A stretch of DNA of 64,000 bases, from the NCBI RefSeq assembly GCF_006345805.1, contig NC_042998.1:171926001-171990000 (forward strand), in the 5' to 3' direction. Shown here in pieces: positions 111 to 18,669 of the stretch (position 1 is its first letter; the number at the start of each line of letters is the position of its first letter). This stretch comes from Octopus sinensis. Lineage: Eukaryota. The translations under genes were made by a program, and so were the position numbers. Under the pieces are notes generated by a model. That model was not told where the DNA came from. It searched no databases and saw only the letters and a program-made list of their open reading frames with translations.

Positions 111-168
<58 letters not shown>

Positions 169-173
169 ACACC

Positions 174-208: not shown

Positions 209-1110
209 CTATACAATATGTTACATTACTCGGTAGTCAAGATAAAACTCTGAGTTTCAGATGCCGAAGTGGAAATCCACAACACCATCTCTTCGGTTAT
301 CTGGCTATTTGAAAACGTTATGAAAAAATACCGTTAAATAAAGGGAAATTACTCTGTTATAACTCTGCTTGCCTGCGTACTTATACATCGCTCGCATTTT
401 TCGTCATAAAAATTATATAAAAATACATAAAAAATATATGAAAATATATAAAAATATATAAAAAATATATAAAAATATATAAATTCTTCTTGGGACATAA
501 CATAGAAAGCATGTTCTATCTGTTCTCTTTAGGGGACTAAAAACGTAACAGAAATTTAGTCACATGTGGGCATGATCCGAAAAGCTCTGTCCTTGTATTT
601 AGACATGTAGTAGGGTCTAAGCTGCTTTTCCAGATAAGAGAGATGGCTTATCTGGAAAATCAGCTTAGACCCTACTACATGTCTAAATACAAGGACAGAG
701 CTTTTCGGATTATGCCCACATGTGACTAAATTTCTGTTACGTTTTTGGTCCCCTAAAGAGAACAGATAGAACATGCTTTCTATGTTATGTCCCAAGAAGA
801 ATTTATATATTTTTATATATTTTTTATGTATTTTTATATAATTTTTATGACGAAAAATGCGAGCGATGTATAAGTACGCAGGCAAGCAGAGTTATAACAG
901 AGTAATTTCCCTTTATTTAACGGTATTTTTCATAACGTTTTCAAATAGCCAGATAACCGAAGAGATGGTGTTGTGGATTTCCACTTCGGCATCTGAAACT
1001 CAGAGTTTTATCTTGACTACCGAGTAATGTAACATATTGTATAGATAAATTTCCTCTATTTACATATATTGAGGTCTCTTTCTTTCTTTTGTTATCTTAC
1101 CGTTTATCAA
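206..1110 (+). mobile_element. Non-autonomous Penelope-like/retrozyme-type element with an inverted duplication (long palindrome, arms ~206-638 and ~647-1047)
   Basis: The arms are near-perfect reverse complements around an 8-nt loop (agagatgg, 639-646). Each arm carries a hammerhead-like motif. Flanked by (CA)n/(TA)n tracts; no meaningful ORF. Confidence 0.7.
951..1013 (+). ncRNA. Type-I hammerhead-like motif (U4C variant); mirror copy at 240-302 on the minus strand
   Basis: Stem I agataa/ttatct; core CCGAAGA; stem II gatg...catc with an internal gtgg/ccac hairpin; GAAA; stem III ACTC-A-GAGT; cleavage triplet GUU. Confidence 0.6.
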
Positions 1111-14397: not shown

Positions 14398-14449
<52 letters not shown>

Positions 14450-14451
14450 AT

Positions 14452-15118
14452 TAGGATAGCATTTTTCGAAAAAAATTTTACAATGGCCAGCATATTGAAA
14501 ATACCTTTAAAGGTTAAATTTATAACCAACTTATAAACAAGGGCAAAAGAAAAAAATTCCAATGCCAAATATGCTGAAAACAGACACATCGTCAATAACC
14601 ATATAATTCATCACTATAAGAGCACGTCTCGAAGAAAGCCGACAAAAATAACTAAAAAATTCCGTTATTATCATATCGGACCCGATTTCAGACTTAATTC
14701 ATAAGAACCTTCTCTTCGTCAGTGATAAATGCGGCAAAGAAATAAATGAAATACTCACTCATTCTCATGAAAGAAGCAAACATTAAGTCATGAGCAGAAT
14801 TAAGTACCCCAAATTTATCCAAACTAGAAATTCTCCAGCATACCTCGAGACACGAGGCGAAAACTCTCATAGAGTGAGAGAGTCCGGAAGTGAACACTAT
14901 TAAATTTACTTCTAATATAGGATAAAATTTTTCAAAAAAAAATTCTATCAATGGCCAGCATATTAAAAAATACCTTTAAAGGTTAAATTTATAAACAAGG
15001 GAAAAGAAAAAAATTCCGAAACAGACACATCGTGAATAACCATATAATTCATCACTATAAGCACGCATCTCGAAGACCCGATTTCAGAGTTAAATCCATT
15101 AGAACTTCTCTTCATTAT
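14452..15118 (-). mobile_element. Retrozyme-like tandem element, ~466 bp unit (one full unit plus a deleted partial unit), subfamily A
   Basis: The unit repeats at 14452 and 14918; contains an intact hammerhead; non-coding; (TA)n flanks. Confidence 0.8.
14662..14734 (-). ncRNA. Type-I hammerhead ribozyme, apparently intact
   Basis: ccgcat-ttatca-CTGACGA-aga...tct-GAAA-tcgg-gt-ccga-TA-tgataa-taacgg. All core nucleotides are present and all three helices pair. Predicted cut after AUA, between 14674 and 14673. Confidence 0.88.
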
Positions 15119-15189: not shown

Positions 15190-15668
15190 ATATATATATA
15201 CATGCATAATGTACACACACACATATATTTACTTACATACATATACATATAGCAGCGTACGTACACTTGTGGTCTCCTACATACATGTATATATTCGAAC
15301 GTTTCGAGACGCATAAATTATAATGGTTATCGACAATTTTTTGTTTCGGCATATTTGGCATTAGAAATTTTCTTCTGCCCTTATCTTGTAAATTATTTAT
15401 AAATTTAACCTTTAAAGGTATTTTTTGATATGCTGGCCATTGATAAAAATTTTTTCCCGAAAAAAATTTTATCCTACATTAATTATAAATTGAATAGTGT
15501 TCACTTCCGGATTCTATCACTCTGTGAAAGTTTCTAGTTCGAATCACAAGTGTCTCGAGATGTGCCGAAGATTTTTCTATTTTGGATATATTTGGGGTAC
15601 TTGGGTCTGCTCAGGACTTAGTGCTTGCTTTTACCATGGGTATGAGTAAGTATTTCACTTATATCTCG

Positions 15669-15736
15669 CGTATTTGCCGCTGAAGAGGGGAAAATTTTCT
15701 TATGATTAACCCTGAAATTGGACCAATCGGTATACG
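15669..15736 (+). ncRNA. Type-I hammerhead ribozyme (array copy 1)
   Basis: ttgccg-CTGAAGA-gggg...ccct-GAAA-ttgg-a-ccaa-T(-)cggta. One base is missing at the cleavage site relative to copy 2. Confidence 0.75.
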
Positions 15737-16116
15737 AATTTTTTAGAGATTTCTATCGGTTTGTTTCGAGACGCATAAATTATATGGTTATCGACAATTT
15801 TTTGTTTCGGCATATTTGGCATTAGAAATTTTCTTCTGCCCTTATCTTGTAAATTATTTATAAATTTAACCTTAAGGTATTTTTGATATGCTGGCCATTA
15901 ATAAAAATTTTTTTGAAAAAATTTTATCCTACATTAATTTAAATTGAATAGTGCACTTCCGGATTCTATCAATTCTGTGAATTTCTGTTCGATCACAAGT
16001 GTCTCGAGATGTGCCGAAGATTTTTCTATTTTGGATATATTTGGGGTAACTTGGGTCTGCTCAGGACTAGTGCTTGCTTTTACCATGGGTATGAGTAAGT
16101 ATTTCATTATATCTCG

Positions 16117-16187
16117 CGTATTTGCGCTGAAGATGGGAAAATTTTTCTTATGAATAACCCTGAAATTGGACCAATACGGTAATAACG
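16117..16187 (+). ncRNA. Type-I hammerhead ribozyme (array copy 2)
   Basis: ttgcg-CTGAAGA-tggg...ccct-GAAA-ttgg-a-ccaa-TA-cggtaa. One C is missing in stem I relative to copy 1. Confidence 0.75.
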
Positions 16188-16413
16188 AATTTTTTAGAGA
16201 TTTCTATCGGTTTGTTTCGAGACGCATAAATTATAATGGTTATCGACAATTTTTTGTTCGGCATATTTGGCATTAGAATTTTTCTTCTGCCCTTATCTTG
16301 TAATATTTATAAATTTAACCTTTAAAGGTATTTTTTGATATTGGCCATTGATAAAATTTTTTTCCCGAAAAAATTATTTTTATCCTACATTAATTATACA
16401 TGTATATATACAG

Positions 16414-16446
<33 letters not shown>

Positions 16447-16723
16447 TATATAATATATTATATATATATATATATAAATATATATATATATTATATATAT
16501 TATATATATATATACATATACATATACATATATATACATACATTATACGTACATATGTATATATATACAGGCTTATATATACATACACTATATACATAGA
16601 TAAGTATACATATACCCATACATATATATACAATATATATATACACACATACATATATTATATACATATATACGTACATATATATATATAATATATATAT
16701 ATATATATACATATATACGTACA

Positions 16724-16755
<32 letters not shown>

Positions 16756-16761
16756 CTATAG

Positions 16762-16798
<37 letters not shown>

Positions 16799-16817
16799 CA
16801 TACATAGTTATAAATAC

Positions 16818-17397
16818 AGTGTAATTTAAACACATAAGAGATAGCCATCATAGGACTACCTGCACGCTAGAGATCTCAGTTAAATTAGAGATAAAAAATC
16901 AAAGGGAATGAAAAATGAAAACTTTTACCATCTAACTCCTGGACCAATGGTTTCTTACTTTTTGTTAGCAAATAAAATAATTTGCTTAGCGAAGACTTCT
17001 TCAGCAGGTACACCTTACATTAAATATATATACACGATGCAATCCAGTATATGCCCCGTGCATATACATTCTAATCTTTCAAATCTACCGCGCAAGCGCA
17101 GCTCCCTGTCGGCAGTAAATAAATATGCCGGCTTTTTCATTTCGAAAACTATCCCCAAAATTATCAATAATTGATAATATCAAAGGTTAATCGGGAATAT
17201 TAGAAATTTCCATTACCAGTGGCCTAGCGTGTAAAAATTCAGTCAATAGATTATATATAGTGTACATTTAGAGACATAAGAGGTAACTATCATAGGACTA
17301 ACCGCACGCTAGAGAGGACAGTTAAATTCCGAACCACTATTAGAGATAAAATATCGATGGAATGAAAAATAAAACATTCACCATCTAACTCCGGCAC

Positions 17398-17398
<1 letters not shown>
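16818..17398 (-). mobile_element. Retrozyme-like element of a different family, ~453 bp unit with a ~130 bp terminal direct repeat
   Basis: 16818-16945 is repeated at 17259-17398; contains a hammerhead; microsatellite flanks. Confidence 0.7.
16938..17008 (-). ncRNA. Type-I hammerhead ribozyme motif
   Basis: cctg-CTGAAGA-stem II (distal agcaaat/atttgct hairpin, mismatched base)-GAAACCA-T-TGGTC-cagg; GUC cleavage triplet. Confidence 0.72.
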
Positions 17399-17433
<35 letters not shown>

Positions 17434-17482
17434 ATATATATATATTCATATATATATATATATATATATTATTATATATATA

Positions 17483-17513
<31 letters not shown>

Positions 17514-17588
17514 TAATATACATATATATATATAGTACATAATATATATACCATGTATATATATATACATATGAATAAATATATATGC

Positions 17589-17619
<31 letters not shown>

Positions 17620-18669
17620 ATTATATATATATATATAATATATATATATATAATATATGTATATACATACGTATATATACACAAATGGACGCGCTTTGGG
17701 AAGGCGCTCCAAGTCTCGCGCCGTCGCAGTCGAAGCCAGTACGGTTCCCGCTCGACCGAATCCTCTTCATCTAGTTCCCGGTCTTTGTTGTACCACGCCA
17801 GGCACTTCCCGCCCAGTTATCCTCAAATCGTGCATTTTTTGTGAGGAAAACCGCGTATCTAACGAGGCGTTTTATGGTTGACACGAGTTCTAGTTGCTCT
17901 ATTTGGCCTTTGCATCTCGCTACAGACAAACCAAAGCGTTCAGAGATCACCTTGCATGCGGTCATTTGGTCTTCTATTGCGACTTATGGTCAAATTTCAT
18001 GAAATGTTGACAGTAATCTTCGCCGTGTGGATCAGCTATTCCAAAGAGCAAACCTACTCATCGACCCTCCACTATATTACCACCACTGGGCCACCTATCT
18101 ATATGCTCCAGCTTGGCCTTATTCGCCCCTCCACCAGCCCTTGGGCATCTACCCTTCATATATAAATACACACACATATATATCTATACATATTCATATA
18201 TACATATACATATATATACATACATATACATATATACATACACATATATTTACATATATGTACATATATACATACACATATATTTACATATATACATATA
18301 TACATATCTATATATACATACATCTATATGTACATACATGCATATATATACATATACATACATACATACATATATATATATATGTACATACATACTCACA
18401 CACGCACACACTCATATATATATATATATATATATACACCCATCCATCCATCCATCCATCCATATATATATATATATATATCGTTTTTCAATTTGTTTTA
18501 GAAACTTTATCTGAAACTGTGTGCTGAAACCGATACTGTTACCCTTTGGGAGAGATATACTGCCAGTAAACACACTCACCGGTTTTGGTTCACTTCGATT
18601 TTTTTGTTAGGTTAACAGAAATTGCTCATCACACCGCTCTGATACGCAAATGGTTTGAATGTGTGTATG

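What the first reader, a model, noticed from the sequence alone, without database searches (positions are those of the whole stretch)
16818..17398. Second ribozyme family whose 5' boundary coincides with the predicted cleavage site
Seen: an unrelated ~453 nt unit has a terminal direct repeat and a GUC hammerhead. On the minus strand the element begins (ccggagttagatgg, 17394) within ~4 nt of the position equivalent to the internal cut site (GTC|caggagttagatgg, 16941), then runs more than one unit. Inference: this is the footprint expected from reverse transcription of ribozyme-processed or circular RNA.
Basis: partly seen in the sequence, partly recalled or inferred. Interest (0 to 1): 0.72.

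Follow-up and report, generated by a model that had tools for sequence, protein, structure and literature searches.

The report
Hammerhead retrozyme copy, Penelope-style ends
This is one damaged copy of a protein-free jumping repeat, present at many hundreds of places in the genome, that carries an RNA motif predicted to cut itself and is likely pasted in by a Penelope-type enzyme; sister copies stop just after the predicted cut two to three times more often than elsewhere, but most run straight through it.

Summary
Window 17392-16809 (minus) is a 1.3-unit copy of a dispersed ~470-nt non-coding family with a type I hammerhead (971 exact hits to one 21-mer). It starts at +3 from the cut position; its own ribozyme has a broken stem II base. 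The family's fixed ends are the 3' ends: two sites near +150 and +245, followed by (TA)n. Of 72 head-to-head insertions with both ends classed, 68 pair one site with the other, a Penelope-like footprint. The 5' ends scatter over the whole unit, with a modest excess at +1..+13 (12 seen, 4.4 expected, p=0.002; 6 vs 2.1; 28 vs 8 across the cut). It is a plateau near +3..+9, not a spike at +1, and 56 of 68 arms read through. So a minority of templates were probably ribozyme-cut (or the enzyme stalls on the folded ribozyme); a circular template is possible, not shown. New member of the known animal non-LTR retrozymes. The scan has reported the same pattern for other families in this genome. No partner element or RNA-level evidence found.

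The parts
16809..17392 (-). Single-armed retrozyme copy, +3 to +147 of the next unit (about 1.3 units); 5' edge ambiguous up to 17398
   Evidence: Alignment to subfamily consensus, 536/616 identical; family hits
17259..17392 (-). 5' terminal repeat (starts at +3 of the cut position; lacks the 5' half of the ribozyme)
   Evidence: 76-77% to the 3' repeat; spacing 453
16938..17008 (-). Type I hammerhead motif: stem I 17008-17005 with 16941-16938, core 17004-16998, GAAA 16954-16951, near-palindromic stem III 16950-16944, predicted cut between 16942 and 16941; basal stem II broken in this copy
   Evidence: Motif scan; pair check and folding; family covariation
16809..16939 (-). 3' terminal repeat ending at family end site A (about +147), directly followed by (TA)n
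16840..16860 (-). Small hairpin upstream of end site A whose stem letters differ but stay complementary between subfamilies (seen by eye, not counted); candidate enzyme-recognition element
   Evidence: Subfamily consensus prints
17160..17180 (-). Position equivalent to family end site B (about +245), read through in this copy
   Evidence: 3' ends at 234-256 in 34 of 101 rows; position from alignment
16395..16806 (.). (TA)n microsatellite at the 3' end (likely target)
   Evidence: Tandem Repeats Finder
17400..17679 (.). (CA)15 and (AT)n microsatellite at the 5' end
   Evidence: Tandem Repeats Finder

Best explanation
This is one decayed copy of a dispersed non-coding ~470-nt repeat family with a conserved type I hammerhead fold, whose copies end at two fixed 3' sites next to (TA)n and were likely inserted by the reverse transcriptase/endonuclease of a Penelope-like element. 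Shown: family, fold conservation, two fixed 3' ends, head-to-head arms that pair one end with the other, scattered 5' ends with a 2-3-fold excess at +1..+13. Inferred: the enzyme nicks both strands in TA-rich DNA, primes one strand at site A (~+150) and the other at site B (~+245) inside an RNA from one source, and the two cDNAs are joined where they stop. Most templates still had the hammerhead site intact (uncut multimer or re-ligated circle). A minority (roughly one in ten arms above background) were most likely cut at the ribozyme, so the enzyme ran off the RNA end and lost a few bases on joining; the window copy would be of that sort: upstream site cut, downstream site not. With a broken stem II and one ribozyme only, the window copy is predicted to be dead.
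For: Family: 61 matches from 40 of 2273 candidates scored; 971 and 603 exact hits to two 21-mers, 0 for the reversed controls. Fold: consensus core letters kept in about 90-97% of aligned copies; on 15 hand-picked copies 79% of cells paired, 25 cells with two-sided changes, 0/500 shuffles as high, slid controls 24-48% paired; stem III stays palindromic or nearly so with different letters. 3' ends: 54 at site A, 34 at site B, 13 elsewhere of 101 rows. Inverted arm directly upstream in 62 of 101 rows. Arm pairing: 68 AB, 3 AA, 1 BB, 50 with an unclassed end, of 122. Arms of one insertion share non-consensus letters (0.029 vs 0.004-0.016 between loci; 79 of 97 above). 5' excess: 12 vs 4.4 expected at +1..+13, p=0.002; 6 vs 2.1 at +1..+6, p=0.019; 28 on the + side vs 8 on the - side and none at -1..-3, p=0.0013 against a simulated null. 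The stronger local helix (3' strand of stem II) shows no excess: 2 vs 4.8 and 7 vs 5.4; 6 truncated of 12 filtered rows from 141 anchors, by eye. RT plus GIY-YIG open frames of 775-781 aa exist in the genome. Two internal start sites, AT-rich targets and use of both strands are reported for a lizard Penelope-like enzyme in vitro (PMC11167929).
Against: No Penelope-like element sharing sequence with the unit was found among 40 GIY-YIG loci (hits were separate old repeat copies), and no coding sequence lies directly upstream of family copies. The distance between the two ends (~95 nt) is longer than the 30-40 nt tail described for Penelope-like elements. The excess is no smaller in subfamilies with U instead of C at core position 3 (8 of 38 vs 4 of 30, p=0.53), although such variants are expected to cut more slowly. 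Exact +1 starts are rare. Stem I spans the same positions as the excess, so position cannot separate cutting from stalling. In a scan over all 13-nt windows other weak peaks appear (-93..-81, 7 vs 2.2; -44..-32, 8 vs 3.1), and the cut-site window alone would be borderline after correction. PMC11167929 found uncut RNA to be the main substrate and no RNA reads ending at the cut. No target-site duplication was found in 35 of 36 single-armed rows, though (TA)n hides them.
Confidence: 0.75

Rival explanations
1. Same element and enzyme, but the excess of 5' ends at +1..+13 comes from the reverse transcriptase stalling or switching template in the folded ribozyme (stem I and its loop-loop contact), with no cleaved template involved.
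For: Plateau centred near +5 rather than at +1; covers the 3' strand of stem I; no dependence on the C3/U3 core letter; other weak peaks near hairpins; earlier scan note e1-9589730 saw over-use of +6..+8 but not +1 in another family (unchecked).
Against: The more stable stem II helix shows no excess on its 3' strand; the drop at -1..-3 is sharp (0 of 36 where the simulation puts 62 of 358).
Confidence: 0.35
2. The main template is a circular monomer made by hammerhead cleavage and ligation; more-than-unit arms arise by going round the circle.
For: 19 of 101 rows span more than one unit; the two repeats within one arm share non-consensus letters more than copies from different loci (35 of 49 above, p=1e-4); long source arrays were not seen (longest colinear run 880 nt in 239 loci) and only 1 of 101 rows holds two whole ribozymes, so linear multimer sources look scarce; circles are reported for coral, mussel and axolotl families (PMC7229834).
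Against: A transcript from a two-unit copy explains the same data; no arm above 1.9 units was seen, whereas a circle could give several laps; a stop at the cut on the second pass is not predicted by a closed circle; no RNA data could test it.
Confidence: 0.4
3. The start of this copy next to the cut is pure chance, and the family-level excess is an artefact of anchors and alignment.
For: Most 5' ends are scattered; samples are small, taken in contig order, limited to exact anchors, and overlap in a few loci; region +1..+9 varies between subfamilies.
Against: Three samples with different anchors agree; flanks of the +1..+13 rows are plainly foreign or inverted arms; the simulation with the same aligner does not produce the asymmetry. 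For this one copy, chance still accounts for about a third of such starts (4.4 of 12).
Confidence: 0.12
4. The repeat is the terminal repeat of an ordinary protein-coding Penelope-like element, or a satellite spread by DNA-level duplication.
For: Published retrozymes resemble Penelope terminal repeats (bioRxiv 10.64898/2026.07.22.740005); truncated Penelope copies look similar.
Against: The unit joins head-to-tail to itself with no reading frame between; no RT or endonuclease sequence directly upstream of any copy tested; copies are dispersed, 5'-truncated, inverted and end at fixed sites, unlike satellites.
Confidence: 0.08

Closest known systems
Metazoan non-LTR retrozymes (Cervera and de la Pena 2020, PMC7229834; Li, Clavereau and Pollet 2026, bioRxiv 10.64898/2026.07.22.740005)
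   Same: Non-coding AT-rich unit of a few hundred nt with one type I hammerhead per unit, short palindromic helix III, head-to-tail repeat, many dispersed copies, co-occurring Penelope-like elements.
   Different: Unit 459-476 nt, slightly above the 150-450 bp range in PMC7229834 but inside the 51-972 bp of the preprint; arrays here stay under two units; cleavage, expression and circles untested; those papers, in the parts read, do not map copy ends.
Penelope-like elements, EN+ clades (Frangieh 2024, PMC11167929; Craig 2021, PMC8557442; Cervera 2014, PMC4209133)
   Same: 5' truncation, partial tandems, adjacent inverted 5'-truncated copy, (TA)n or AT-rich targets, two internal 3' ends downstream of a hammerhead, mostly uncut template.
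   Different: No reading frame; the two ends are ~95 nt apart rather than 30-40; hammerhead has a long two-part stem II, unlike the minimal form; strict one-end-per-arm pairing was not stated in the passages read.
R2 retrotransposon with a 5' self-cleaving ribozyme (recalled; only a reference title seen)
   Same: A ribozyme cut can define the 5' end of the copied RNA.
   Different: Different ribozyme class and enzyme; here the cut marks only a minority of 5' ends.

Membership tests
Type I hammerhead ribozyme | Core CUGANGA, GAAA and UH triplet in type I order | tested here: met
   Present in the window copy and in the consensus; three of six subfamilies have U at position 3 as majority
Type I hammerhead ribozyme | Three paired helices, supported by covariation | tested here: met
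   Met for the family: 15 chosen copies, 79% cells paired, two-sided changes in stems I and II (related sequences inflate the shuffle test). Not met for the window copy, whose basal stem II is unpaired
Type I hammerhead ribozyme | Self-cleavage at the predicted site | not testable with these tools
   Only indirect: excess of 5' ends at +1..+13
Metazoan non-LTR retrozyme | Non-coding head-to-tail unit of a few hundred nt, one hammerhead per unit, GC below 50% | tested here: met
   Units 459-476 nt, AT-rich, tandem junction without reading frame; no open frame of 150 aa or more at the locus
Metazoan non-LTR retrozyme | [quoted passage not shown] | tested here: inconclusive
   Not met by the window copy; met by 1 of 101 rows and by a few loci such as L003, L014, L044
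Metazoan non-LTR retrozyme | Expressed as linear and circular monomer RNA | not testable with these tools
   No RNA holder on record was listed, and only contigs could be laid
Penelope-mobilised element | 5' truncation, inverted 5'-truncated arm, microsatellite target, two alternative 3' ends | tested here: met
   62 of 101 rows with inverted arm; 88 of 101 3' ends at two sites; 68 of 72 AB pairs
Penelope-mobilised element | Sequence match to the terminal repeat of an autonomous Penelope-like partner | tested here: inconclusive
   No match in 40 loci taken from 147 GIY-YIG hits of 5029 candidates
Autonomous Penelope-like element | RT plus GIY-YIG reading frame between the repeats | tested here: not met
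   tblastn of three Penelope-like proteins: no hit in the window, and hits in 7 of 219 family loci, none directly upstream in sense
Plant LTR retrozyme | Type III hammerhead in LTRs, 4-bp target duplication | tested here: not met
   Topology is type I; the terminal repeat is a partial second unit with variable 5' edge; 4-bp duplications were not searched

The most novel reading that the evidence does not exclude
The genomic copies are a fossil record of ribozyme activity in the germ line: about one in ten arms was copied from RNA cut by the hammerhead, the rest from uncut or re-ligated RNA, while a Penelope-type enzyme primes the two target strands at two different fixed sites on RNA from one source. 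That would be genome-level evidence that an animal retrozyme hammerhead cuts in vivo during transposition, and it gives a measurable cut-versus-read-through ratio per subfamily.
Probability: 0.45. Interest if true: 0.55.

Novelty: new member of a known kind. Interest (0 to 1): 0.33.

Why it matters
What the hammerhead does for Penelope-like elements and animal retrozymes is an open question (PMC8557442 calls it unclear; PMC11167929 found cleavage unnecessary in vitro). The end map here gives two testable numbers: a 2-3-fold excess of stops right after the cut against about 80% read-through, and near-strict pairing of two start sites in two-armed insertions (68 of 72). The window copy itself is an ordinary dead copy, and the scan has noted the same anatomy in several other families of this genome, so the added value is replication and a quantified, controlled test of the cut-site idea.

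Tried and rejected
Rfam scan of the whole window: only microsatellite-driven miRNA-type noise, no hammerhead hit. RNA evidence: no RNA holder listed on record; three guessed-RNA contig sets and one other run cover the unit but cannot show ends, strand or circles; not used as evidence. Partner search: blastn and a profile search of the unit against 40 GIY-YIG loci found only separate old repeat copies (L245, L249) and one weak hit (L223); the abundant 781-aa family has an unrelated 3' region. Target-site duplication search: one 8-nt candidate in 36 single-armed rows. C3 versus U3 subfamily test: no difference. The first 30 loci were chosen by similarity to the full query and were not used for the 5'-end statistics. 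(first 100 of 603 rows) was read by eye only and is not counted as a separate test. A second peak of 5' ends at -93..-81 was not repeated in the list and was dropped. The idea that the 5' boundary is a fixed family end was rejected. Literature searches listed no title or abstract on 5'-end maps of animal retrozyme copies or on cephalopod retrozymes; most listed papers were seen as listings only, and subscription journals are not covered.

Full report
Observation. A motif scan finds a type I hammerhead with core at 17004-16998, GAAA at 16954-16951 and GUC ending at 16942, so +1 is 16941. The ends repeat each other at 76-77% with spacing 453. The copy sits between (TA)n at 16395-16806 and (CA)15/(AT)n at 17400-17679. 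It has no blastn similarity to the 449-nt repeat next door. Rfam listed no hammerhead.

Family. The window lies in a 2.72-Gb genome (G000); earlier scan notes call it an octopus, which I did not test. The copy has 2273 first-look candidates, 40 scored. Exact 21-mer anchors give 603 and 971 hits with 0 for reversed controls; these count arms or units, not insertions. A consensus from 99 loci is 470 nt; clustering of 162 segments gives six subfamilies of five or more members, units 459-476 nt, members 5-11% from their consensus. The window copy aligns from +3 through one unit to +147, 536/616 identical; its 5' edge could be placed at -4 because the flank matches a few bases.

Ribozyme. The consensus forms stem I (4 pairs, internal loop, 6 pairs), a two-part stem II (6 and 8 pairs) and a short near-palindromic stem III. 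Across subfamilies stem II letters change in pairs and stem III stays palindromic or nearly so with different letters and lengths. On 15 copies that I chose to span subfamilies, 79% of cells pair, 10 of 26 pairs show a two-sided change, 25 cells against a shuffled mean of 13 (0/500), and slid controls pair 24-48%; the count of pairs with a two-sided change is not above the shuffles (160/500), and relatedness inflates these tests. A short palindromic helix III is described as the mark of hammerheads that work as dimers (PMC4209133, passages). In the window copy the three basal pairs of stem II are lost, the constrained hammerhead fold is -10.0 against -19.8 kcal/mol for the consensus, and the stretch folds no better than shuffles (z=+0.28; sister L002 z=-2.15). 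Three subfamilies have U at core position 3 as majority (13/14, 13/14, 9/14).

Ends. I took the first 100 of 971 hits to an anchor at +117, fetched all but one duplicate, and scored every anchor in those loci: 101 rows, 100 distinct 5' ends. 3' ends fall at +138..170 in 54 rows, +234..256 in 34 and elsewhere in 13, mostly followed by (TA)n. 62 rows have an inverted arm directly upstream, 36 none, 3 a same-sense piece. In all family loci held, 122 head-to-head insertions were found; of the 72 with both outer ends at site A or B, 68 pair A with B, 3 A with A, 1 B with B; 50 had an unclassed end. The two arms of an insertion differ less (0.088) than copies from different loci (0.085-0.153 by subfamily; 80 of 97 below) and share more non-consensus letters (79 of 97 above), so they come from one source. 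This matches the structures described for Penelope-like elements: 5' truncation, partial tandems, an adjacent inverted truncated copy, an optional tail, microsatellite targets (PMC8557442, passages), and the in vitro behaviour of a lizard element that cuts and extends both strands of AT-rich DNA and starts at two internal sites downstream of its hammerhead, using mainly uncut RNA (PMC11167929, parts 1-2 of 4). The genome has such enzymes: 147 GIY-YIG matches, several in 775-781-aa frames with an RT domain. I found no partner sharing sequence with the unit among 40 of those loci.

5' ends are spread from +105 to beyond -500. In the 100-end sample the rate is 0.0042 per nt at +14..+106, 0.0147 at +1..+13, 0.0087 at -13..-1 and 0.005-0.009 further up; +1..+13 has 12 ends against 4.4 expected (p=0.002), and -4..+5 has 8 against 2.8 (p=0.008). 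A second sample, all 68 hits to a 32-mer starting at +6 (67 rows, 66 distinct ends), has 6 ends at +1..+6 against 2.1 (p=0.019) and background at -13..-1. A third search filtered out most full-length copies (76 rows); 54 were scored by script and the other 22 read by eye as full-length. Ends lie at +1..+13 in 28 rows and -1..-9 in 8, none at -1..-3; a simulation with uniform ends gives 186 to 172 (p=0.0013). By eye two more rows start at +1 and two minus-side rows are internal deletions, so the script count is conservative. The samples share a few loci. The excess is a plateau with its mode near +5; exact +1 starts are 0 of 100, 1 of 66 and 2 of 54. Of 68 arms that reach +13, 56 go on past the cut. 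A window scan ranks the cut region first but also shows weaker peaks, so the first sample alone would be borderline without the prior hypothesis.

Cause of the excess. For cleavage: the sharp drop at -1..-3, and no excess on the 3' strand of the stronger stem II (2 vs 4.8, 7 vs 5.4; 6 truncated among 12 filtered rows from 141 anchors). Against: few exact +1 starts, stem I covers the same positions, and U3 subfamilies show as much excess as C3 ones (8/38 vs 4/30, p=0.53), although rare core variants are said to cut more slowly yet stay active (PMC7151607, passages). I put cleavage at about 55%, stalling at 35%, artefact at 10%. An arm like the window copy, which crosses one cut site and stops at the next, fits a linear RNA cut at the upstream ribozyme only. 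A fully cut monomer could only give copies of +1 to +150 or +245 with no ribozyme, so the family must have spread through uncut or re-ligated RNA (inference). Whether that RNA was circular is open: 19 of 101 rows exceed one unit, repeats within an arm share variants (35 of 49), long arrays were not seen (longest 880 nt in 239 loci) and only 1 of 101 rows has two whole ribozymes. RNA data could not test it.

Comparison. It works like, and by the features that could be tested belongs to, the animal non-LTR retrozymes (PMC7229834, passages and Discussion; bioRxiv 10.64898/2026.07.22.740005, parts 1-3 of 5, which argues that they are non-autonomous derivatives of Penelope-like elements and saw cleavage in 1 of 9 tested dimers). 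The preprint's supplements are closed and could list related families. I saw these notes after the first end map; the arm-pairing test was prompted by them.

Noticed in passing
window 15301-16398 (+): Unrelated 449-nt repeat, 2.4 units, 92% matches, with its own hammerhead-like core at about 15680 and 16127 and near-palindromic stem III; it ends in the same (TA)n as this copy, tail to tail.
   Followed up: partly
window 14439-14998: Older inverted copy (76%) of the 449-nt family with a hammerhead-like motif at 14722-14674 (-).
   Followed up: no
window 12111-12036 (-): A third hammerhead-like motif (core, 6-pair stem I, palindromic stem III with GUA triplet), followed by a (GATA)n repeat.
   Followed up: no
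window 26180-25062 (-) and 52337-51813 (-): Fragments of a LINE-type reverse transcriptase (PF00078, E=1e-12) and a mariner-type transposase (PF01359, E=2e-26).
   Followed up: partly
family unit about -160 to -120 from the cut (window about 17095-17055, -): A GC-rich motif followed by a TATA-like stretch is kept in all six subfamilies; candidate internal promoter. Its likeness to an NRF-1 site is recalled, not tested.
   Followed up: no
L242-L245, L247-L253: Young Penelope-like family with intact 781-aa RT-GIY-YIG frames and a 3' region of repeated CCAAT/TGACGTCA-like modules; my scan found no canonical hammerhead in it.
   Followed up: partly
L223, L246, L250: Another Penelope-like family carries a minimal hammerhead with palindromic stem III in its 3' region and ends about 190 nt later in (TA)n, the same geometry as the retrozyme.
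   Followed up: partly
subfamilies S1, S6, S10 (e.g. L138, L141, L060): Whole subfamilies spread with U instead of C at hammerhead core position 3.
   Followed up: partly
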